From a virus (Duplodnaviria; Caudoviricetes): DNA of 64,000 bases. The position numbers and the translations under genes were made by a program. The notes beneath the pieces were generated by a model, which saw only the letters and a list, made by a program, of their open reading frames with translations, did no database searches and had not been told where the DNA came from. Location: positions 1-64,000 of IMG/VR virus record IMGVR_UViG_3300020036_009553. One strand, given 5' to 3'. This document shows positions 19,124-28,757 of this stretch, piece by piece. The stretch's first letter is position 1. Every line of letters begins with the position of its first letter.

Positions 19124-19606
19124 ATGAGTTTCAAACAGAAAGATTGTGCTGTATATGTAGATGGGAAATGTATTTGTGTTCTTAATGACCAGTTACTCGA
19201 TCGGCAAGGAATTGGAGCAGTACAGCTGAGAGAATTGAAAAAGTTACACAGACAGAAGTACCGAACATTCCAACAAATACAAAATCAAATTTATCTTGGT
19301 ATTCCCAGCCGTGCCAAGCTAGATGCCTTAGTCGCTAAAGTGACTAACATCGAGTTTGGGTTGCAGGATGTGTGGGGGTTTCCAAGGGATGAAAATTACC
19401 ATCAATGGTTCAGACTCCCAGGATGCTCTTGTCCAAAATTGGACAACGCCGACTTTGTGGGGACTGCACTCCGCATTTATAGTCATGATTGTCCATTGCA
19501 TAAAATGAGATTACACAAAATGAAATTGCAACAAAGTGACCAACCTGTTAAAGTTCTCCCCCCAATTCAGTGGGCTGATACGGTCAATTTGTGTTCTAGT
19601 TTATAA
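19124..19606 (+). CDS. hypothetical phage protein, possibly metal-binding
   Basis: H..W...PGCSCPKLDN...CPLH. Confidence 0.6.
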   Translation: MSFKQKDCAVYVDGKCICVLNDQLLDRQGIGAVQLRELKKLHRQKYRTFQQIQNQIYLGIPSRAKLDALVAKVTNIEFGLQDVWGFPRDENYHQWFRLPGCSCPKLDNADFVGTALRIYSHDCPLHKMRLHKMKLQQSDQPVKVLPPIQWADTVNLCSSL

Positions 19607-19751
19607 CAATGGGAATTCACATTGGGAGCATTATTATTGGGATGTTAGCGATAATAATATACAGTGTTTACATTTGGGCCATATATTTTAATCAACTGTT
19701 GATTTTTATGTAATATTAAAGTATAATGTATTTTTATGAGAGGAATACGTC

Positions 19752-19994
19752 ATGCCACCAACTATCCAAAAAGGACCAGAACTCGAGCTGTTGTGTGAGA
19801 TATGGAATGAGCACGGCGATCATTTTGAGATCGGGCCCGATCGTGATGGTCTCGACATGATTGAAATTCGTGAGTATGTTCAAGGGACGGAGAAGGACGA
19901 CAAGTGTATCAATCGAGTGGTCTTTACCAAAGACACCGCACGGTTAATGATTACAGCACTGACCAAGGTTTTGGAGAATAATCCCGATGCATGA
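19752..19994 (+). CDS. hypothetical protein
   Basis: Promoter and GAGGA RBS. Confidence 0.55.
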   Translation: MPPTIQKGPELELLCEIWNEHGDHFEIGPDRDGLDMIEIREYVQGTEKDDKCINRVVFTKDTARLMITALTKVLENNPDA

Positions 19995-20186
19995 TTTTTT
20001 CATTGCGATGTTAACTTGGGTAATGTATTTTCTCTCCTTCAACTCGTTTGTGTTTGGTGTTGTCACTTTGGCTACGTTAGAGAACATACGTTCGTTTAAA
20101 GATAACATTCCTCTAAAGATGTTTATCATCTGTGGAGCATTGTTAAACTTGGTTTGGGTTATTCGACATGTGATGATTGGACAAAC

Positions 20187-20597
20187 ATGCTTATCGTAAC
20201 AGACAAACAGACTGGGGTAAAGAGCTTGCTTTCACCCGAATACAATTATCGTTTTGATCCTCGCAATGGAGAGTTTTTGCGGTGGGGCAAAACGTTTGAT
20301 GATGATCCAAGTGTTGGGATGTTGGAAATCTTTGATTTGGAAGTGTCCACTGTCTGCGAGGGTATCGGTAAAGGTCCTTGTAAGCATTGCTACAAATCGA
20401 ATACACCAAAAGGTGATAATATGTCGTTTGAGACATTCAAGCACATTTTTGATCTTATTAGTGGTGGTGTTACAAAAGTTAATCTCACGATGGATGATGG
20501 GACAATTCGGTCGTATCTTCCTGATGAAGATGTGTTGTTGGTTGATGGGTCAACCAAAAAAGCAAAGCTGCTGACGTATGCGGACGATGTACTATGA
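20187..20597 (+). CDS. radical SAM enzyme, N-terminal fragment (part 1 of 3)
   Basis: DLEVSTVCEGIGKGPCKHCYKSN cluster motif and MSFETFK; stops long before a full barrel. Confidence 0.75.
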   Translation: MLIVTDKQTGVKSLLSPEYNYRFDPRNGEFLRWGKTFDDDPSVGMLEIFDLEVSTVCEGIGKGPCKHCYKSNTPKGDNMSFETFKHIFDLISGGVTKVNLTMDDGTIRSYLPDEDVLLVDGSTKKAKLLTYADDVL

Positions 20598-20791
20598 GAC
20601 AAAAGATCAAAAGAACGATGGTAATTGAGTTGGAGTATGACGATGCTACACATTGGAAGGATGCGAATGATCAAAAATGGTTCGTTCAAGATGTGTTGAT
20701 GTGTCACAAACCGGAACTTGTTTTGTATTCTACGCTCGTTGGTGACATCGTTGGTAATGTCCGCGTGGTTAATATTGACCACAATGAATAA
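20594..20791 (+). CDS. small hypothetical protein
   Basis: ATGA overlap with the upstream stop. Confidence 0.5.
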   Translation: MRQKIKRTMVIELEYDDATHWKDANDQKWFVQDVLMCHKPELVLYSTLVGDIVGNVRVVNIDHNE

Positions 20792-21085
20792 CAGAGAATT
20801 ATTAGCAGATATGTTGGGTGCGAAATCGATGAATGTTCTCGCTCGTACCACTGTAACTAACCCAGTTTTCGCAATGGAAAGTGGGTCGTTGGAAATCGTA
20901 CCATTTAAGAACGTAGTGCACAAACACATTATTAAAGATGGTGAATGGGATAACACACTTGTCAATCTGGTAGCAATACAAGAGGATCTTGCTTGGTTGC
21001 TAACTCAACCTGATGATTTTATTGATCACTTTTTTACAGAACAGAACATTTGTGCCGAACCACCTCAATCTAATGGAGAGATCAA

Positions 21086-21498
21086 ATGAATGTAGTTGAT
21101 TGGATGTCGTATAATGTAATTCTCGCAACTGGGATGGTCGTTGGTTGGGTGTTACTCACGTTTGTGTTGGTTAGAAATCGTGTAAAGAATAGTTTTCTCA
21201 CCAAAGAAGATGATATTCACGCTTATGACTAACTTCTGATCTTGGTCCATTGAGGAGATTTAACAACAGAATATGGAAAAATGTTTGTTCACCCTTGTTG
21301 CTGTAGCTATTGGGCTTGTCCCATCATTTATTGTTACTCTAATTATTCGTGCCCAGAACATATTATTTCCTTGAGGAGATTTAACAAATGAAGGTTAAAT
21401 GGAATTTGTCTGGAGTGGTCATCATCGGGGTGGCTTGTGTTCTTTGGGTATTTCTCACATTTATGTTTGTCGTTGCGTTTGATACGTTGTTGCACTGA
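21086..21498 (+). CDS. three very small hydrophobic ORFs (21086-21232, 21273-21374, 21388-21498)
   Basis: Each has an RBS (TTGAGGAGATTTAACA occurs twice) and one transmembrane-like segment; below the ORF track cutoff. Confidence 0.5.
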
Positions 21499-21741
21499 GG
21501 GGATTCAAAATGAACGTTGAACGGGTTCCTGGTGGTGTATTCATCACCATTGTGTATAAATGTGGACACACAACCAAACTCTTTTTTAGAGATGAGAGCT
21601 ACGGTCGTTCAATTGCTCGTGATAAGACCAACGTGCTTTGTCCTCACTGTAGTGTGAATTAACCTATGTGTGTTGCTTGTTGACTGTTCCTTTCAATTAG
21701 TGTAAAATAAGGCTTTCCGTTAATAATTCGCAGGGAACAGT

Positions 21742-22821
21742 ATGAATACCATTTATGCGTACAGAATCAAAAATGATCAATATAGTAACGAATACCGTGT
21801 TGATCAACCAACTTTGTTGCGTCGGCATGATGTGAAAATTGGTTTTACTTCAAGAACAGCAGATGAGCGGATAGCTGAACAAGCTAATGCATCAACAAAC
21901 TCACCACTAATCAAAATTAGTGAGTGGCAAATCGATGAGTCTTTTGGTATTTTTGATAGAAAAGTTCACAATGAATTATTACGCATGGGATATACACATT
22001 TATGTGACGCTGGAAGTGGTGGTAGAATGGGCGAGGAATGGTTCAACATTCCTTCTGTTGATGATGACGAAATGTGTGGGATTATTCTTCAATCAATCCA
22101 ACGAGCATCAACACCAACCGCCGGCCGGTGTGAATTGGAGCTAACCAAGCTGCAATTTGAACAGTTGGAAATTGCGGGGGATGTATTATTAGGTCGAGAC
22201 GACTCTACAATTTTAATGGAACTTTGTCCACGGTTTGGAAAGACTTTGTGGGCATTGTGTCTTCATACGATGATGCCTACCCCAATCATGGTAGTTAGTT
22301 CCTACTGGCTAAGCTCCTTGACTTCATTTAGAAATGAAATATTGAAATTTGTCCAGTTTGAATCAATGTGTTATATCAATATGGACGATTCTGATTATTT
22401 TGATCAAGTTCAGAAAGCGCTATCAGCAGGGAAAAAAATTGTATTGGACGTAAGTTTGTGTGGTAATCCTGATGTTATCGATAACAAAAGAAAGGCATTG
22501 CAACCACTCATTGATCTTAATTCTCACTGGGTAGTCGTTGATGAAGCAGATTTTGGAGCACACACTCCTAGATCTGGTGAATTTATTGACTTCCTGTGTG
22601 GACCAAACAACACCAAGTTGGTGCTTATGACAGGCACAAACGCTGTCCGTGCTTCGAATGGAAGGACTATTGATCACCATTCTTGTGTTACTTATCTTGA
22701 TATGCTTGTTGCTAAAAATAACAACATTTCATATACTTCGTTTTATTCTCCACCCGTTCCTTTTGTTATGAACAGTTTGATAGTAAAAACAAAAAATGAT
22801 GACACAATTAAAACAATTTAG
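21742..22821 (+). CDS. T5orf172/GIY-YIG-like domain fused to an N-terminal SF2 helicase lobe, apparently truncated
   Basis: IYAY...VKIGFTSRTADERI...EEWF; CPRFGKT, VDEADFG, MTGT; no helicase C-lobe. Confidence 0.65.
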   Translation: MNTIYAYRIKNDQYSNEYRVDQPTLLRRHDVKIGFTSRTADERIAEQANASTNSPLIKISEWQIDESFGIFDRKVHNELLRMGYTHLCDAGSGGRMGEEWFNIPSVDDDEMCGIILQSIQRASTPTAGRCELELTKLQFEQLEIAGDVLLGRDDSTILMELCPRFGKTLWALCLHTMMPTPIMVVSSYWLSSLTSFRNEILKFVQFESMCYINMDDSDYFDQVQKALSAGKKIVLDVSLCGNPDVIDNKRKALQPLIDLNSHWVVVDEADFGAHTPRSGEFIDFLCGPNNTKLVLMTGTNAVRASNGRTIDHHSCVTYLDMLVAKNNNISYTSFYSPPVPFVMNSLIVKTKNDDTIKTI

Positions 22822-23236
22822 CCCAATGAGTCCGGTAGCGTTAAAGGATTTTACTGGTGAGCGAAACTATAATTGGTCGTTTGGAATACCATGGGATGAC
22901 TCACCTACATCCGCACGATTCCCGTTTATTACGAACAAAATTCTCCATTGTCCCAATATTGTGGTAGCAGATGTATCATTGGTAGCAACCGTGGACGAGT
23001 GGTGGAGTTGTTGGATATACAGTATGTATTGTGCCCAACATACAACTGGTATCAGCATGGAAAGGCTTGAATACGAGTGGCGGTTAAGACAGAGATCTGG
23101 TGGACTAATACATGGCAATACCCCTCTGTTTCGTCGTGTTGATACCATGGCATACTTTGAAGAAATGCGAAAAGATGATACGTATGATCAAATTGATTTG
23201 TTCACAAAAATGTATGATATTCAAATTTGCACTTAA
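22796..23236 (+). CDS. hypothetical protein
   Basis: 146 aa ORF. Confidence 0.45.
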   Translation: MMTQLKQFSPMSPVALKDFTGERNYNWSFGIPWDDSPTSARFPFITNKILHCPNIVVADVSLVATVDEWWSCWIYSMYCAQHTTGISMERLEYEWRLRQRSGGLIHGNTPLFRRVDTMAYFEEMRKDDTYDQIDLFTKMYDIQICT

Positions 23237-23259
23237 CCATCAATCACAGGACTAATATA

Positions 23260-23580
23260 ATGAAAATCGCACAAATCAAAAATGATTATAAATGTCAAAC
23301 TATTTGCCAATGGGCAGCTGGTGTAGGTGACATCTGGTCAAATCCCGATTTGATTACGATGTTCAAGTATTCCCGCGAAAACAATGTTGTTCCTAATGTC
23401 ACAACCAATGGATATGGGCTAACCGATCAAATGGTTGATGATATCACCAAATATTGTGGAGGTGTTGCGGTTAGTGTTTATGATCCAAAAGATGTTTGTT
23501 ACGATGCCATCAAACGAATCACAGATGCAAAAATGAAACAAAAGGTGCTTGTTCGTATTCCCGTTAATGTGGAGAATTAA
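23260..23580 (+). CDS. radical SAM enzyme, middle fragment (part 2 of 3)
   Basis: GVGDIWSNPDL...VPNVTTNG...GVAVSVY core strands; AGGA RBS. Confidence 0.7.
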   Translation: MKIAQIKNDYKCQTICQWAAGVGDIWSNPDLITMFKYSRENNVVPNVTTNGYGLTDQMVDDITKYCGGVAVSVYDPKDVCYDAIKRITDAKMKQKVLVRIPVNVEN

Positions 23581-24033
23581 ATGAGAATTAAATCATCTAA
23601 AGGCGAAAGTGAAAAATTGAGGTGCCAGCTAGGACAACACCGCATTGTACGAAAGTTTTTGTGGTGGCCCAGACAATTTTTCACAACTGACAACAGAGTG
23701 TTTGAATATGCAAACATTTTGGAAGAAGTTCAAATCACAAAATACAAAAAAAGTGGTATGGTTTATAATTGTGAACCTGAGTGTATTAAATGGGTGGAAA
23801 TTAGTTTTATTGATGAAGAAAAAGAAGCAGCTACAATTATGGAAGGACCAGATGTAACGTGGCTAGCACCCCACGCTGGATATTTACCAGAAATCCCTGA
23901 AAATTCAACCGGCATATTTATTAGTACTGATAATAACATATCAAATGGTAAAAATCGATATGTGCGAATTTGGAGAGATGGCAACTGGTCGGACCCAGTT
24001 GTGTGTTCTCTCCCCTCTTCAGTCTGTAGATAA
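23581..24033 (+). CDS. hypothetical protein, paralog of 24050..24337
   Basis: Shared RIVxKFLxxPRxF...RVFEYAxIxEEVQ. Confidence 0.6.
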   Translation: MRIKSSKGESEKLRCQLGQHRIVRKFLWWPRQFFTTDNRVFEYANILEEVQITKYKKSGMVYNCEPECIKWVEISFIDEEKEAATIMEGPDVTWLAPHAGYLPEIPENSTGIFISTDNNISNGKNRYVRIWRDGNWSDPVVCSLPSSVCR

Positions 24034-24049
24034 GTAAAGAGGTATTATT

Positions 24050-24337
24050 ATGAAATATATGTCTGAAGCAGCCAAACAATTAATTCTAAAAGAACGGGTT
24101 GGCGAACAAAGAATAGTAAAGAAATTTTTGGTATATCCTCGACGATTTGGTGCTAAACCATCCAGAGTATTTGAGTATGCATATATTGTAGAAGAAGTCC
24201 AAGTTATCGGAACAGATTGGTACAAAAATCCGAGCAATTGGGCGTGGAGAGAAATTGATTTTGCTGATGATGTTGAGGAAGTGGTGATAACACGACGAGC
24301 CTCAACCCAACTCCCAATCGATATTAATACAATATAA
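24050..24337 (+). CDS. hypothetical protein, paralog of 23581..24033
   Basis: Same shared motif; GAGGT RBS. Confidence 0.6.
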   Translation: MKYMSEAAKQLILKERVGEQRIVKKFLVYPRRFGAKPSRVFEYAYIVEEVQVIGTDWYKNPSNWAWREIDFADDVEEVVITRRASTQLPIDINTI

Positions 24338-24410
24338 CAAGTATTGAATCCGTTGTGGTACAAGTAGCATTCTTGTATAATATCGTATTGATCGTTCAAG
24401 GACTCCACAC

Positions 24411-25142
24411 ATGACTAACAAAATTGAAATTGTACAAGAACGTCGTGAAAATGACGGCTTTCAATACGTTGAAATGACGTACCAAGAGTATGTTGATTAC
24501 AAATACGGCAAAGATGACTCTCCCGCAAAAAGACAAGAGGTGTTGAACATTTGTTCAACCAATTGTCACGTCCTCGTTAGTGAAGAAACGTATGATTTGT
24601 GCAAGACTGTCCTCAACGATGCTGCCACAGACCCCAGACTTACCAAGATGAAAGCTGTGATGTTCCTGACTTTGAAGCCAAAAGGGAAAAGAAACAAGAA
24701 CAACATCATTAAAGATCCAAAGAAGTATCGTGAATTGATCGACCTAGCGTTCTCACTTGGTGTTAACGTTGGATTTGATTCATGTACGGCTCCAATCTTC
24801 CTTACCGCAATGAAGGACCATCCTCAATTTAACCGGTTCTCACAAATGACCGAATCATGCGAGAGCAATCGGTTCAGTGGGTACGCGAATGTAGATGGAA
24901 ATTATTGGCATTGTTCGTTTACAGAGGACCAACCTGGTTGGAGAGCTATTTCTTTGTTGGATGCTACAGATTTCATCAAAGACATCTGGCATTCTCCTGA
25001 AGTCGAAAAATTCCGTAACCGATTGGTTTCGCAGGATAATTCTCACATTGACAATGAATGTTATTTGTGCCCAGTGTATGATTTGTATGATCCAAGCATT
25101 GGATGTGCAGCTAAAAAAGTTATTAACGTGGAGGCAATGTAG
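24411..25142 (+). CDS. radical SAM enzyme, C-terminal fragment with SPASM/twitch-like domain (part 3 of 3)
   Basis: FLTLKPKG, GFDSC, CESNRFSGYANVDGNYWHCSF, IWHS..FR, CYLCP. Confidence 0.75.
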   Translation: MTNKIEIVQERRENDGFQYVEMTYQEYVDYKYGKDDSPAKRQEVLNICSTNCHVLVSEETYDLCKTVLNDAATDPRLTKMKAVMFLTLKPKGKRNKNNIIKDPKKYRELIDLAFSLGVNVGFDSCTAPIFLTAMKDHPQFNRFSQMTESCESNRFSGYANVDGNYWHCSFTEDQPGWRAISLLDATDFIKDIWHSPEVEKFRNRLVSQDNSHIDNECYLCPVYDLYDPSIGCAAKKVINVEAM

Positions 25143-25561
25143 TGGGAGGATATGTAGGTTTTTGGTTAGCTCGTTGAATGTTGAAGAATAGATATTGTAT
25201 AATACGTTATTGTAGAAATACACAAGGGGAATAATAAGTAAGGTATGACCCAATTATTTTCGCATTATCAAAAACTTTTCAATTGAAAAAGGTAGAACAT
25301 GAACAACATTACTCATATATCCAAGAACTGGCAACCTATTAAGACAATGGCTGGAGCATTATTTGATGTTTGTTTTGCAATAGTGGCTATAATTGGATGG
25401 TATCATGCGGGTGGTGCTTTAGCTGTGCTATTCGTGTTTTTTCTATTGCTACGATCTCAAAGGGCTCACAACAGTGGGCAGTCATTAAAAATGATGCGGT
25501 AAGGAAGTACATGACCTATTTCGTTAGTATTATTGGTGTATTGCTTTTCTTGGTATGAAAG

Positions 25562-25783
25562 ATGAATGAAATAACTGTTGGTGACAAAGTTCGTTTATTG
25601 AACGACATATGGGACGATGGAGAAGAACACCATCCTCCTGGTTGGTTAGCATGGGTAGGAGAGATTCTAGAAGTCAAAGAGGTACGTACACGTAGGTTGG
25701 TTGTATCCCACGTTGGGAATGAAGGTGGATTTGTTGTGTATGATGGTGAATACGAAAGGGTAGCAAATGAAACAGCTAACTAA
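25562..25783 (+). CDS. small beta-rich protein, paralog of 26534..26776
   Basis: VGDKVRLLNDIWDD...H.P..LA shared. Confidence 0.6.
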   Translation: MNEITVGDKVRLLNDIWDDGEEHHPPGWLAWVGEILEVKEVRTRRLVVSHVGNEGGFVVYDGEYERVANETAN

Positions 25784-26087
25784 AACAAAAATAGTGTGGG
25801 TGACTGATGATGGCGTTGAGTTCGACACCGAGCATGATTGTTTAATTGCGGAAGCAAATAAAACATTCCATTCAATAATCGGAGATCCAAACGAAGAAGG
25901 TTATTTTAATAACTTCGAAGAAGGGCCTTGTATTTCTGATATTTACGGTCTTATTCATCTAATAGACAAATGTCCTCAGCTGTTTGTAATGCTTTGTAAA
26001 TTGGTTGGGCTCAAGCCATCGCCTGGCCCAAGTACGTCTTCATTGGTGGTACGTCATATTGAGGAGGGAGATTCTAGTGAAACATAG
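25767..26087 (+). CDS. hypothetical protein, paralog of 26955..27242
   Basis: VWxxxxGxExxTxxxCLxAEA shared. Confidence 0.6.
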   Translation: MKQLTKTKIVWVTDDGVEFDTEHDCLIAEANKTFHSIIGDPNEEGYFNNFEEGPCISDIYGLIHLIDKCPQLFVMLCKLVGLKPSPGPSTSSLVVRHIEEGDSSET

Positions 26088-26547
26088 AAAAGGATTTGTT
26101 AGCAACAGTAGTTCAAGTTCATTTATCGTCATTGCTGACACAGATCAAAAGGTACACTTTACAGATCACACGGGACAAACCCTCGAGTTGGGGGATCGTC
26201 ACGGTGGTGAAAGTGAATTTGGCTGGGCGCACGAACAATATTATGATCTATACAGCAAAATCAATTTTGCATACTTACAAACCAAATCAATGGGTGGTGA
26301 AATAGGTGACCAATGGTTAGCAATGCTTGAGGAAGTTCTATTGGAAAATTCTAAAGCATCGCTGATTCAATGGAGTTGGAACACATACACTTATTCCAAT
26401 GGAGAGACCAGCTTACAGGGATACATTGACCACCAATCAGCCGCACGCGAAGGGGAAAACACAGAGCTATTTAATAGCAAAGAAGCTCTCCAAAATTTCT
26501 TGTTTGATATGAATTCATATATTGAGACAGACAATGACAACAGATGA
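26077..26547 (+). CDS. SNSSSSSF-motif family protein 1
   Basis: GTG start after GAGGAGG; (M)KHRKGFVSNSSSSSFIV. Confidence 0.75.
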   Translation: MKHRKGFVSNSSSSSFIVIADTDQKVHFTDHTGQTLELGDRHGGESEFGWAHEQYYDLYSKINFAYLQTKSMGGEIGDQWLAMLEEVLLENSKASLIQWSWNTYTYSNGETSLQGYIDHQSAAREGENTELFNSKEALQNFLFDMNSYIETDNDNR

Positions 26548-26776
26548 TGCCCAATCTACTCTCGCCCCTGTTGCGGTGGGGGAAAAATTAAAATTGACTC
26601 GTCCTATATGGGATGATGAAACAGACTGGCACCGCCCAACTTGTCTAGCAGTAGCTGGGGAAGTTGTTGCTGTTGTTGGTATGAAACGAGATGGTGTTAG
26701 AGTAGTAGCAGATCGGCCGTCATCGTCACAACCATTTTCCGTGTACCGCGATGAGTTTGTGAGAATTGAAGGATGA
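26534..26776 (+). CDS. small beta-rich protein, paralog of 25562..25783
   Basis: VGEKLKLTRPIWDD...HRPTCLA. Confidence 0.55.
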   Translation: MTTDDAQSTLAPVAVGEKLKLTRPIWDDETDWHRPTCLAVAGEVVAVVGMKRDGVRVVADRPSSSQPFSVYRDEFVRIEG

Positions 26777-26954
26777 CTGTTTCAGCCCCCAAATATTCAA
26801 CCAATGTGATTGATTCTATCATGTTTATGGTTGATCAAGCCGCTGAATTTGGGCATACCTCATTTTATAGTGAATTACCCATTGTGATTTTGCCTAGAGA
26901 CGTGTACGATCAACTAATCGATTGTTATACCGAACACTGCGAGAAGGAAGTTCC

Positions 26955-27242
26955 ATGAGACAGGAAACGAGAACAGTTTGGATAAGCAATAATGGGGAGG
27001 AGCATTCCACACAAGAAGGATGTTTGTTTGCAGAAGCCAAACAAATGTTTAATCAAGTAGTCAATAGTGATGATTATCTTCACACACAAGCATATTTTCA
27101 TACCTGTCCAAGTCATCGGTGTGTTGGAGAGGTGGAAGATCTCATTGAGTTGCTTACGAAACAACCTGAATTAGCGAATACAATCCAAATGATTATCGAT
27201 CTCAGGAGAAGAGCTCGGAATGCAATCTTCCCAACTGAATAA
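26955..27242 (+). CDS. hypothetical protein, paralog of 25767..26087
   Basis: VWISNNGEEHSTQEGCLFAEA. Confidence 0.55.
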   Translation: MRQETRTVWISNNGEEHSTQEGCLFAEAKQMFNQVVNSDDYLHTQAYFHTCPSHRCVGEVEDLIELLTKQPELANTIQMIIDLRRRARNAIFPTE

Positions 27243-27264
27243 TGACTAAAAAAGGACCAACACA

Positions 27265-27651
27265 ATGAAAATCAGAAAAGGGTTTGTTAGTAATAGTAGT
27301 AGTTCTAGTTTTATTTGTGACATAACCGGAACTGTTGAATCGGGGTACGATGCCAGTCCAAGTGACTTTGGCATGGTCACATGTGAGATCGGTCATACTT
27401 TTATGGAGAGGTTCATTCTCAGTGGCACTGACGTTGCCACCGGCGATAATTTTAACGATGATGATGAAGTGTTGTCTGAGTATTGTCCAATTTGTAAGAT
27501 GGCTCACATTCGGGACACCCAACTGATTACCTACTTACTCCACACATTGGGGAAGACGAGAGCAGAAGTAACGAAAGAAATCGCATCAACTTTTAACACT
27601 CTATCAGACTTCACCAACTATATTAAAAGGTTGGAATCGACATTGAAGTAG
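27265..27651 (+). CDS. SNSSSSSF-motif family protein 2 (with Cys/His pairs)
   Basis: MKIRKGFVSNSSSSSFIC; CEIGH and CPIC. Confidence 0.75.
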   Translation: MKIRKGFVSNSSSSSFICDITGTVESGYDASPSDFGMVTCEIGHTFMERFILSGTDVATGDNFNDDDEVLSEYCPICKMAHIRDTQLITYLLHTLGKTRAEVTKEIASTFNTLSDFTNYIKRLESTLK

Positions 27652-27709
27652 TACAAAATGCCAACTTTGGCATACATAATAGTATACTTTTCTCATTTAG
27701 GATGTTATT

Positions 27710-28234
27710 ATGAAAATCAGGCAAGGATTTGTTAGTAATAGTAGTTCGAGTTCGTTTATTGTTCCATTCCCAAAAAACTTAAAGGTTAATACCGATAATG
27801 TTCATGAATTTCTATTTGGTTCAAAAACACCAACCAACGTTGTTAACCAGTATAACGAACATACGATTCCATCGTATGACGCCGTTAAGACAATAATATC
27901 TGCCATGCGTAGGCAAAAATTCAGTTTCAAAAATAGACAGCGGGTGTTAGAGGAAGCAATAAATGGGTATATCCAGGGCGAACCAGAGTGGGAAGATTTA
28001 TGTGATGCAAACACACTCATGTTGGATGACATAGACGAATTAGATAAGTTGTTTAAACAGTTTAATGAAGCAATTAGTGCATACCGAACAAACGCATTAA
28101 ATTCCTGCCTCAAACAGTGGGGGCCAGACGTAGATGTGTATGTTTTTGACTTTGATGATAATGATGAGTGGGGAGCTACAATGGAACATGGAGACGTGTT
28201 CAGTCGTGTTCCCCATCTGAAAGTATCTAAGTAA
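27710..28234 (+). CDS. SNSSSSSF-motif family protein 3
   Basis: MKIRQGFVSNSSSSSFIVPFPK. Confidence 0.75.
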   Translation: MKIRQGFVSNSSSSSFIVPFPKNLKVNTDNVHEFLFGSKTPTNVVNQYNEHTIPSYDAVKTIISAMRRQKFSFKNRQRVLEEAINGYIQGEPEWEDLCDANTLMLDDIDELDKLFKQFNEAISAYRTNALNSCLKQWGPDVDVYVFDFDDNDEWGATMEHGDVFSRVPHLKVSK

Positions 28235-28250
28235 ATCACGAGGGGGTATT

Positions 28251-28757
28251 ATGAAAATCAGGCAAGGATTTGTTAGTAATAGTAGTTCGAGTTCGTTTAT
28301 TGTTCCATTTCCTAAAGACATGGAAATGACAGTATCTAACATCCACAAATACTTGTACGGGGACACTCCATTTTCCATCTATTATTACGAGAGCTCCGTT
28401 AGCTCAATGGAAGCTGCCCAGATCATTCACGATGAAATTCACAAACAGACATCAAATGATAAAAAGCGGTTGTATGATGCTATGGACGGATGGATCCCCG
28501 GACAACCAGAATGGGATTACAGCAACAATCCACTGTTACCAGCAAACCACGAGGAATGGAATAAACAGTGGCGCAAATACGAAAAACGTCTCGAGCGGTA
28601 CAGGAATGGTTTATTGAACGAATACACTCACAAATGGGGGGATAATGTGGATCTCTATACTTTTGTTTTTTCTGATGAGGATGGTTTACCTTGGGTCGTA
28701 CTGGAATATGGACCCACATTCGATAATGTTCCTCATTTAGCAATAAGTCACCACTAA
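28251..28757 (+). CDS. SNSSSSSF-motif family protein 4 (tandem paralog of protein 3)
   Basis: First 22 aa identical to protein 3 with near-identical DNA; similar C-terminus. Confidence 0.75.
   Translation: MKIRQGFVSNSSSSSFIVPFPKDMEMTVSNIHKYLYGDTPFSIYYYESSVSSMEAAQIIHDEIHKQTSNDKKRLYDAMDGWIPGQPEWDYSNNPLLPANHEEWNKQWRKYEKRLERYRNGLLNEYTHKWGDNVDLYTFVFSDEDGLPWVVLEYGPTFDNVPHLAISHH

What the first reader, a model, noticed from the sequence alone, without database searches (positions are those of the whole stretch)
20187..25142. Radical SAM/SPASM enzyme split over three separated genes with extra tails at each break
Seen: the CX7CX2C cluster motif is in 20187-20597, the GD..NP / TTNG / VAVS core in 23260-23580, and the rest of the barrel plus SPASM cysteines in 24411-25142. 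The order is collinear, the pieces are intact ORFs (clear RBS on parts 2 and 3), and unrelated genes lie between them. Each break carries apparent extra peptide: part 1 ends VTKVNLTMDDGTIRSYLPDEDVLLVDGSTKKAKLLTYADDVL and part 2 starts MKIAQIKND; part 2 ends KVLVRIPVNVEN and part 3 starts with ~45 extra residues. Inference: the first pair resembles the end of a split-intein N-half and the start of a C-half but lacks block A, TxxH and HN, and is too small for a Hint fold. The tails may be non-splicing docking modules that assemble a three-chain enzyme.
Basis: partly seen in the sequence, partly recalled or inferred. Interest (0 to 1): 0.88.

Follow-up and report, generated by a model that had tools for sequence, protein, structure and literature searches.

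The report
Three-piece phage radical SAM enzyme gene
A phage gene for a radical SAM/SPASM protein-modifying enzyme has been cut into three separately translated genes by two inserted gene cassettes, each of which adds conserved peptide extensions that probably hold the pieces together without splicing, a mechanism tested experimentally so far only in one other phage enzyme.

Summary
ORFs 20187-20597, 23260-23580 and 24411-25142 are collinear pieces of one radical SAM/SPASM gene. The gene is contiguous (about 380 aa) in dozens of related phages. The pieces keep 74 of 79 family-invariant residues.

Neither RNA nor protein splicing is supported. There is no intron model match, no Hint/intein match and no splice-junction nucleophile.

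Each break carries extra peptide that nearly all contiguous homologues lack:
- Break 1 has a 47-aa tail and an 8-aa head.
- Break 2 has a 12-aa tail and a 49-aa head.

The same extensions recur in other phages on unrelated allele backgrounds, so they belong to laterally moving insertion cassettes. One relative carries the break-2 pair fused as a 54-aa in-frame insert. At a third site, relatives hold a GIY-YIG homing endonuclease gene.

All 10 environmental variants in piece 1 are synonymous, five of them in the tail. A complex prediction places the tails and heads in the interfaces (0.90 against best control 0.69).

The best reading is a non-covalently reassembled "gene in pieces" with cassette-derived docking tails. 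This matches the phage Aeh1 NrdA precedent (PMC3045599). The scan has already noted this kind on other DNA. It is a new member of a known kind, here split twice. The likely substrates are leader-bearing proteins encoded downstream.

The parts
20187..20453 (+). Piece 1 core: N-terminal strands, beta1, the CX7CX2C radical SAM cluster loop and helix alpha1 (residues 1-89)
   Evidence: PHROG 7293 profile positions 20-114; tblastn of P0004 residues 2-107; alignments
20454..20597 (+). Piece 1 tail, 47 aa plus stop, predicted to form a four-strand beta meander. The stop overlaps the ATG of the next ORF (ATGA).
   Evidence: Absent from contiguous homologues. Conserved in P0122 and P0128. Five of five variants here are synonymous. 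Strands 98-101, 107-110, 115-117 and 123-125. Interface residues 91-105, 119 and 127-136.
20594..23259 (+). Insert 1, 2.7 kb of cargo with about 8 ORFs: 20594-20791, 20784-21089, three tiny membrane-like ORFs at 21086-21498, a zinc-ribbon-like ORF at 21510-21662, a T5orf172-domain ORF at 21742-22821, and 22796-23236
   Evidence: ORF list; Pfam T5orf172 E 6.9e-7; no homologues in the 45 related loci
23260..23283 (+). Piece 2 head, 8 aa, one short strand
   Evidence: The same head is found on P0011 and P0040. It contacts piece-1 tail residues 95-100 in the predicted complex.
23284..23541 (+). Piece 2 core: beta2 with the GVGD (GGE-type) motif, NP.. helix, TTNG strand and VAVS strand (residues 9-94)
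   Evidence: PHROG 7293 profile positions 107-189; tblastn of P0004 residues 96-181
23542..23580 (+). Piece 2 tail, 12 aa plus TAA. Its last codons contain the GGAG RBS of the next ORF, whose ATG follows the stop directly.
   Evidence: Sequence. Related tails are on P0123 and P0124, and within the insert of P0021. Interface residues 91-103.
23581..24410 (+). Insert 2, 0.83 kb of cargo: two paralogous ORFs of unknown function, 23581-24033 and 24050-24337
   Evidence: Paralogy E 1e-11; phrog_11031 at E about 1e-3; no Pfam or NCBIfam match
24411..24557 (+). Piece 3 head, 49 aa, acidic
   Evidence: Absent from contiguous homologues. Related heads are on P0012 and P0024, and within the insert of P0021. 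Interface residues 3-11 and 16-25.
24558..25142 (+). Piece 3 core: beta5 and beta6 of the barrel plus the Cys-rich SPASM/twitch-like domain
   Evidence: PHROG 7293 profile positions 189-363. Pfam SPASM E 1e-3, below cut-off. tblastn of P0004 residues 178-378.
26077..28757 (+). Four downstream genes whose products share an N-terminal leader (MKIRxGFVSNSSSSSF type): the candidate substrates
   Evidence: Motif scan of the window and about 45 related loci; ORFs

Best explanation
This is one phage radical SAM/SPASM maturase gene broken at two places by inserted gene cassettes. The breaks lie between helix alpha1 and strand beta2, and between helix alpha4 and strand beta5 of the barrel.

The three pieces are translated separately, each from its own RBS and start codon, probably from one co-directional transcript. 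They then reassemble non-covalently into one barrel plus SPASM domain.

Each cassette brought the coding sequence for a pair of extension peptides, one long and acidic and one short and basic, that sit at the new chain ends. In the model the 47-aa tail of piece 1 forms a small beta meander. The 8-aa head of piece 2 adds a strand to it. The 12-aa tail of piece 2 packs against the 49-aa head of piece 3. These extensions most likely make the insertions phenotypically neutral by stabilising assembly, as the mobE-derived tails do for Aeh1 NrdA.

The cassettes, with their tail and head coding ends and a few tens of codons of flanking gene, have moved between alleles by a homing-like gene conversion. 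The reassembled enzyme probably modifies the shared Ser-rich N-terminal leader of the proteins encoded just downstream.

What is shown: the split, collinearity, conservation, mosaicism and selection. What is inferred: assembly, the docking role of the tails and the substrate.
For: 1. One gene in three collinear pieces, contiguous elsewhere.

2. The pieces are not decaying. They keep 74 of 79 invariant and 54 of 63 near-invariant residues, and the losses cluster at the breaks. All 10 variants in piece 1 across environmental strains are synonymous, 5 of them in the tail.

3. The tails are conserved. The piece-1 tail recurs on P0122 (62% of 21 aligned tail columns, about 64% over all 47 by my own count of the alignment) and on P0128. 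The piece-2 head recurs on P0011 and P0040. Break-2 tails and heads recur on P0123, P0124, P0012 and P0024, and are fused in P0021.

4. The extensions are mobile.
- P0122 is 90-94% identical to the contiguous P0007 over its core, and P0011 is 81-90% identical to P0007 (81-97% to P0003 or P0007) away from the break. Both share the tail, the head and the adjacent flank with the window.
- P0040 relates to P0048 in the same way.
- The third site and break 2 show the same mosaic.
- A single clade of break-1 alleles is rejected (p-AU 5e-6). A single clade of break-2 alleles is rejected (p-AU 0.013).

5. At the third site (GIG|NPDL), L011 and L042 hold a GIY-YIG+NUMOD3 homing endonuclease gene between the pieces, with analogous tails and heads.

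6. Charge pairing resembles Aeh1. The short extensions carry +1 to +6 and the long ones -3 to -8 (PMC3045599).

7. Complex prediction of pieces 1+2+3, with piece 2 as the scored partner, gave 0.90. The best of 3 controls gave 0.69. That mark was reached by 58 of 80 solved complexes and 2 of 110 mismatched pairs. The runs agree in at least 84% of contacts and the partner pLDDT is at least 83. The interfaces include both tails and both heads. Halves of a split gene can pass this test simply by likeness to solved single-chain structures.

8. Candidate substrates are kept. Four leader-bearing genes lie downstream here, and 1-7 lie beside the gene in nearly all related loci.

9. The fold of a homologue is nearest to SPASM peptide and protein maturases: SuiB, TigE, anSME, PqqE and CteB.
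Against: - There is no experimental or expression evidence.
- No recognisable homing endonuclease lies in either insert of this phage. Insert 1 has only a T5orf172-domain ORF, and insert 2 has two ORFs of unknown function.
- The fused break-2 insert of P0021 is modelled with low confidence: residues 154-181 have pLDDT below 50.
- The piece-1 tail alone reaches only pLDDT 64-74.
- Alignments covering the tails hold only 3-5 sequences.
- In Aeh1 the tails were not needed for the two fragments to bind each other, only for higher assembly. "Docking" may therefore be too simple a description.
- The control with piece 3 replaced still scored 0.69.
- I named the groups for the clade tests after seeing the tree.
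Confidence: 0.68

Rival explanations
1. The enzyme does work in three pieces, but the extensions are passive by-products. They would be read-through into cassette DNA and start-codon context, with no role in assembly. The large native interfaces of the barrel would suffice.
For: The piece-2 tail encodes the RBS of the next ORF. Short tails at other sites are Lys/Arg-rich, as A-rich translation-initiation regions would read. In Aeh1 the fragments bind each other without tails. The P0021 insert is poorly modelled.
Against: A 47-aa tail is kept at about 57-64% identity in three phages. All its variants are synonymous and it has a predicted ordered fold. The 49-aa head is conserved in four alleles. 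Charge pairing is consistent. Tail and head residues lie in the confident interface. In Aeh1 the tails are essential for activity.
Confidence: 0.2
2. The pieces are pseudogene remnants. The insertions killed the gene and the fragments are decaying or have other roles.
For: Two insertions lie inside a catalytic barrel. Five invariant residues are lost near the breaks. There are no expression data.
Against: 74 of 79 invariant residues are kept, including all cluster and SPASM cysteines. Every piece has an intact frame, an RBS and a start codon. The variant ratio in piece 1 is 10 synonymous to 0 non-synonymous. The same splits persist in several diverged phages. The candidate substrate genes are retained.
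Confidence: 0.1
3. Degenerate split inteins ligate the pieces by protein trans-splicing.
For: The beta-rich pattern of the piece-1 tail recalls the first strands of an intein N-half. A genomic layout of gene half, mobile genes, gene half is known as "fractured genes" (PMC2677866, listed).
Against: There is no Pfam intein or Hint match at E up to 0.1. The extension pairs total only 55 and 61 aa. The tail starts carry no conserved Cys/Ser, and the heads carry no His-Asn and no Cys/Ser/Thr at +1. The residue after the break-2 head is T, I, V or I in four alleles. A search with the tail alone found no intein.
Confidence: 0.03
4. The inserts are ORF-bearing group I or II introns, or are bypassed, so that one mRNA or one polypeptide is restored.
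Against: No intron family matched at E up to 1 in 19500-25800. The ORFs are packed with overlapping or abutting stops and starts. Each piece has its own RBS. The tails evolve as coding sequence. In L042 only 35 nt separate the gene piece from the endonuclease gene.
Confidence: 0.03

Closest known systems
Aeromonas phage Aeh1 nrdA-a / mobE / nrdA-b, the "genes in pieces" ribonucleotide reductase (Crona et al., PMC3045599; review PMC2988022)
   Same: A gene that is contiguous in relatives is fragmented inside an alpha/beta barrel, between strands, by a mobile insertion. The fragments are translated separately. [quoted passage not shown] The tails carry opposite charges. There is no RNA or protein splicing.
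   Different: - Here the enzyme is a radical SAM/SPASM maturase.
- There are two independent insertions, giving three chains.
- One tail is a 47-aa predicted beta meander.
- This copy holds no recognisable endonuclease gene.
- The tail-bearing cassettes are seen on several allele backgrounds and once as a fused in-frame insert.
- Nothing here has been tested experimentally.
"Fractured genes": split inteins with a free-standing homing endonuclease gene between the gene halves (Dassa et al., PMC2677866)
   Same: The layout is the same: gene half plus extension, then mobile gene(s), then extension plus gene half. The sources are environmental phage-like sequences.
   Different: The extensions here total 55-61 aa, lack all splicing residues and match no Hint model. 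The pieces should stay separate chains.
T4 gene 39/60 split by mobA, and split gene 43 of Aeromonas phages 25 and 44RR (seg43, IC-UTS) (PMC2988022, section 17)
   Same: Genes of T4-like phages are split by endonuclease transposition or by short intercistronic inserts. The products reassemble.
   Different: Those are replication enzymes in two pieces. As far as I read, no conserved laterally moving tail modules are described for them.
SPASM-domain radical SAM maturases: SuiB, TigE, anSMEcpe, PqqE and CteB
   Same: These are the nearest solved folds to the family (Foldseek E 9e-8 to 1e-5; 5wgg by sequence profile E 1.5e-5). They share the N-terminal cluster motif, the partial TIM barrel and a Cys-rich C-terminal domain.
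   Different: Sequence identity is 10-15%. No curated family cut-off is reached. The cluster spacing is CX7CX2C here, and CX3 to CX13 across the family. The substrate is unknown. All solved relatives are single chains.

Membership tests
Radical SAM superfamily with SPASM/twitch domain | Three-Cys cluster motif after beta1 (canonical CX3CX2C) | tested here: met
   Piece 1 has CX7CX2C and the three Cys are invariant in the family. Relatives have CX3 (L042) to CX13 spacing. Most contiguous homologues carry PF04055.
Radical SAM superfamily with SPASM/twitch domain | GGE-type SAM-binding motif at the end of beta2, and a partial TIM barrel | tested here: met
   GVGD in piece 2 aligns with the family's invariant G.G and near-invariant D. 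The AF2 model of homologue P0021 has pLDDT 80.8 and a barrel that matches SuiB, anSME and PqqE.
Radical SAM superfamily with SPASM/twitch domain | Cys-rich C-terminal auxiliary-cluster domain (Pfam SPASM PF13186) | tested here: inconclusive
   Piece 3 scores 19.8 bits, E 1e-3, below the 21.5 cut-off. A few homologues carry PF13186. Five Cys are invariant in piece 3.
Mobile-element-fragmented "genes in pieces" with insertion-derived tails (Aeh1 nrdA type) | The gene is contiguous in relatives, and the fragments are collinear and individually translatable | tested here: met
Mobile-element-fragmented "genes in pieces" with insertion-derived tails (Aeh1 nrdA type) | A free-standing homing endonuclease gene lies between the fragments | tested here: inconclusive
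   This window holds only a T5orf172-domain ORF in insert 1 and none in insert 2. Relatives split at a third site hold a GIY-YIG+NUMOD3 gene.
Mobile-element-fragmented "genes in pieces" with insertion-derived tails (Aeh1 nrdA type) | Unique tails at the new ends that are absent from contiguous homologues and travel with the insertion | tested here: met
Mobile-element-fragmented "genes in pieces" with insertion-derived tails (Aeh1 nrdA type) | The fragments assemble and the tails are needed for activity | not testable with these tools
   Only a prediction is available: 0.90 against best control 0.69.
Split intein / fractured gene | Hint fold blocks, an N-terminal Cys/Ser, a C-terminal His-Asn and a +1 nucleophile | tested here: not met
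   No Pfam intein or Hint hit. The junction residues are not conserved nucleophiles. The extensions total 55-61 aa.
Group I/II intron with endonuclease ORF | A ribozyme core flanking the ORF, with exons joined at the RNA level | tested here: not met
   No Rfam intron match at E up to 1. The tails evolve as coding sequence. RNA joining itself was not testable because no RNA run is listed.

The most novel reading that the evidence does not exclude
The tail- and head-coding ends may be a selected, integral part of a class of mobile cassettes. Such a cassette would be a splicing-free counterpart of introns and inteins. It can invade the middle of a catalytic barrel because it carries its own protein-level "clasp". 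It spreads between alleles with a short conversion tract, swaps or loses its cargo genes, and can decay to a small in-frame insert, as in P0021. Three different clasp types have hit this one gene family at three sites.
Probability: 0.45. Interest if true: 0.75.

Novelty: new member of a known kind. Interest (0 to 1): 0.55.

Why it matters
Only one enzyme, Aeh1 NrdA, has been shown to survive fragmentation by a mobile element through insertion-derived tails. Its authors proposed that this could be a general mechanism.

This locus gives a second enzyme class, an oxygen-sensitive Fe-S barrel enzyme, cut twice. Natural comparison material comes with it:
- many contiguous alleles;
- two-piece alleles at each of three sites;
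- a three-piece allele;
- a fused derivative.

That set makes the docking hypothesis directly testable by co-expression. It also offers small natural peptide pairs that might serve as split-protein assembly tags.

The mosaic alleles suggest that the tails travel with the cassette. That would explain how endonuclease cassettes can colonise coding sequence without an intron or an intein.

Separately, this enzyme is linked to families of proteins that share one Ser-rich leader. That points to an undescribed phage protein-maturation system.

Tried and rejected
- **The look-up of encoding contigs.** I could not see the DNA or the cargo of the other split alleles (P0122/P0011, P0012, P0024, P0021, P0040).
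- **Metagenome and genome scans.** The metagenome scan with P0012 returned only an unrelated contiguous homologue. The genome-contig scan returned one contiguous copy.
- **Megablast to GenBank phages.** No match.
- **DNA repeats around the breaks.** Nothing beyond chance.
- **Promoter and terminator scan.** No more sites than in shuffled sequence. The T4 late-promoter motif is absent from the region.
- **Fused form carrying the piece-1 tail.** None found among longer proteins, which is weak evidence.
- **Paralogues of the tails or heads elsewhere in this genome.** None.
- **Piece-1 tail alone against 1.84 billion representatives.** This found P0128 and a cyanobacterial WD40 protein (9 weak repeat hits, about 7 bits each, summed E 4.6e-13). 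I treat that as a resemblance to a four-strand blade, not homology.
- **Cargo ORFs.** No Pfam or NCBIfam match. They have no homologues in GenBank phages apart from an S-CAM7 hypothetical protein matching the T5orf172 ORF. The atlas search was uninformative.
- **Sequencing runs.** No RNA holder is listed. No contig joins across an insert, and cover is patchy.
- **Duplication idea.** I considered that the first strand of the piece-1 tail is a diverged copy of beta2. Identity is only 4 of 21, so this is not established.
- **AF2 of fused P0021.** It gave no confident fold for the insert.
- **Literature.** A search for the leader motif found nothing.

Full report
**Observation.** The window is the first half of a 128,415-base IMG/VR virus record that CheckV rates 57% complete. 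All genes in the region lie on the + strand.

Three ORFs match one protein family collinearly.
- Piece 1 is 20187-20597 (136 aa).
- Piece 2 is 23260-23580 (106 aa).
- Piece 3 is 24411-25142 (243 aa).

Against the 384-position PHROG 7293 profile they cover 20-114, 107-189 and 189-363 (E 1.7e-19, 9.9e-7, 7.7e-42). Against the contiguous homologue P0004 they cover residues 2-107, 96-181 and 178-378.

Piece 1 holds the CX7CX2C cluster motif. Piece 2 holds the GVGD (GGE-type), TTNG and VAVS elements. Piece 3 holds the rest of the barrel and a Cys-rich domain with a sub-threshold Pfam SPASM match.

Contiguous homologues of 340-394 aa are common.
- About 170 GenBank T4-like phages carry one, including the RB43, KP15 and CfP1 groups.
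- 42 of 44 IMG/VR loci carry one.
- Dozens of metagenomic proteins are 63-72% identical.

The split is present in independent samples. Contigs from activated-sludge and freshwater runs bridge two of the four junctions. It is therefore not an assembly artefact.

**The pieces are under selection.** Together they keep 74 of 79 residues that are invariant in 33 full-length homologues, and 54 of 63 near-invariant ones. The losses lie next to the breaks.

Among near-identical environmental strains, all 10 variants inside piece 1 are synonymous. Five of them fall in the tail.

Each piece has its own start. AGGA precedes piece 2 and AAGGA precedes piece 3. The piece-1 stop overlaps the next ATG. The piece-2 stop is followed at once by the next ATG, whose GGAG RBS lies inside the tail codons.

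**Splicing is not supported.**
- No intron family matches at E up to 1.
- No intein or Hint family matches.
- The extension pairs total 55 and 61 aa.
- The tail starts have no conserved Cys/Ser. The heads have no His-Asn, and the residue after them is not a conserved nucleophile.

**The extensions.** Break 1 lies between helix alpha1 and strand beta2. Piece 1 continues for 47 residues that no contiguous homologue has. Piece 2 begins with 8 extra residues.

Break 2 lies between helix alpha4 and strand beta5. Piece 2 ends with 12 extra residues. Piece 3 begins with 49.

These extensions recur in other phages.
- The 47-aa tail is on P0122 and P0128. It is about 64% and 57% identical respectively, as conserved as the core.
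- The 8-aa head, with an altered beta2 flank, is on P0011 and P0040. These are pieces 2+3 in one chain.
- Break-2 tails are on P0123 and P0124, and break-2 heads are on P0012 and P0024.
- P0021 is contiguous but carries a 54-aa in-frame insert. That insert is the break-2 tail and head joined together.

A third site lies inside the GGE-type motif. In L011 and L042 it is split by a GIY-YIG+NUMOD3 homing endonuclease gene, again with a short basic tail and an acidic 29-aa head. P0018 and P0046 carry the same head.

In every pair the short extension is basic (+1 to +6) and the long one is acidic (-3 to -8).

**The extensions travel with mobile cassettes.** On a tree of the C-terminal core, the split alleles do not cluster. 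Holding break-1 alleles together costs 158 log-likelihood units (p-AU 5e-6). Holding break-2 alleles together costs 64 (p-AU 0.013). I named these groups after seeing the tree.

Segment identities show the mosaic directly.
- P0122 is 90-94% identical to the contiguous P0007 over its core.
- P0011 is 81-90% identical to P0007 (81-97% to P0003 or P0007) away from the break.
- Both nevertheless carry the window-type tail, head and about 35 flanking residues. The flank includes a four-residue deletion and changes in beta2.
- P0040 relates to P0048 in the same way.
- P0037 relates likewise to P0052 and P0048, and P0012 to P0032.

This is the pattern expected of homing with co-conversion of flanks.

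In this phage the cargo differs from a plain endonuclease gene. Insert 1 (2.7 kb) has about eight ORFs, including a T5orf172-domain protein. From memory, Pfam places T5orf172 in the GIY-YIG clan, and I did not test this. Insert 2 has two paralogous ORFs of unknown function. None has homologues in the related loci.

**Predicted assembly.** A three-chain prediction with piece 2 as the scored partner gave 0.90.
- The best of three controls gave 0.69. That control kept piece 2 and replaced piece 3.
- The mark was reached by 58 of 80 solved complexes and 2 of 110 mismatched pairs.
- The runs agree in at least 84% of contacts and the partner pLDDT is at least 83.
- Halves of a split gene can pass such a test simply because the model knows the single-chain fold.

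The interface lists carry more information than the score.
- Piece-1 residues 95-100, the first tail strand, touch piece-2 residues 6-9, the head.
- Piece-1 beta1 touches piece-2 beta2.
- Piece-2 residues 91-103, the tail, touch piece-3 residues 3-11 and 16-25, the head.

AF2 of piece 1 alone gives four short strands in the tail at pLDDT 64-74. AF2 of the fused P0021 gives low confidence for the first half of its insert and helices for the second half. The structural picture therefore remains provisional.

**Comparison with what is known.** The closest precedent is phage Aeh1 NrdA.
- The insertion of mobE split the gene between two barrel strands.
- The tails that arose with the insertion are essential for activity.
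- One tail is basic and the other acidic.
- The tails are not needed for the two fragments to bind each other, only for higher-order assembly (PMC3045599).

The 2010 review of T4 mobile elements lists this case together with mobA in gene 39/60 and seg43 or IC-UTS in gene 43. It calls the assembly of such pieces an open question (PMC2988022).

Earlier notes of this scan report the same kind of thing in other genomes: NrdD, DnaE, an RNA ligase in three pieces and a CCA enzyme. One of those notes led me to the Crona paper, which I then read myself. The present case is a new member of that kind. It adds a new enzyme class, two different cassettes in one gene, and natural one-piece, two-piece, three-piece and fused alleles.

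**Function of the enzyme.** The fold is nearest to SPASM peptide and protein maturases. No curated family is reached.

In nearly every related locus the gene is followed, or sometimes preceded, by 1-7 genes. Their products begin with the same leader (MKIRxGFVSNSSSSSF type) on otherwise different bodies. This window has four, at 26077-28757. I infer that these are the substrates. Their retention here fits a working three-piece enzyme.

**Verdict.** My confidence is about 0.68 that this is a non-covalently reassembled, twice-fragmented enzyme with cassette-derived assembly tails. The main rival, at 0.2, is that the tails are passive. Interest is 0.55.

Noticed in passing
window 26077-28757; also L003-L051 beside the radical SAM gene: In nearly all of about 45 related phage loci, the radical SAM/SPASM gene sits next to 1-7 genes whose products start with the same leader (MK[IV]RxGFVSNSSSSSF[IV]) on unrelated bodies. 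This window has four. No Pfam family matches them and no paper holds the motif. They are probably the substrates of the maturase.
   Followed up: partly
window 23581-24033 and 24050-24337: Two paralogous ORFs (150 and 95 aa, weak phrog_11031 match) fill the second insert. Their function is unknown and they have no endonuclease signature.
   Followed up: partly
window 21742-23236: A 359-aa ORF carries an N-terminal T5orf172 domain and a DEAD-like ATPase half. It is followed by an overlapping 146-aa ORF. The only phage homologue is a 319-aa hypothetical protein of Synechococcus phage S-CAM7, itself followed by a 448-aa ORF. This may be a nuclease-helicase module that is truncated here.
   Followed up: partly
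window 21086-21498: Three tiny hydrophobic ORFs (48, 33 and 36 aa) stand in a row inside insert 1. A 33-nt direct repeat covers the RBS region of two of them (21239-21271 and 21360-21392).
   Followed up: no
family-wide; window 20355-20390: The spacing of the first two cluster cysteines varies within this one family. It is CX3 in L042, CX7 here and in RB43-type phages, and CX13 in several metagenomic members.
   Followed up: no
protein P0123 (no locus): This N-terminal piece is split at break 2. It also carries an in-frame insert of about 18 aa at the third site (GIG|NPDL), which looks like the scar of a lost endonuclease cassette. Alleles can therefore accumulate and lose cassettes.
   Followed up: no
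window 20457-20594: The piece-1 tail aligns weakly with single WD40 blades of a cyanobacterial repeat protein (P0127). This is probably convergence on a four-strand meander.
   Followed up: yes
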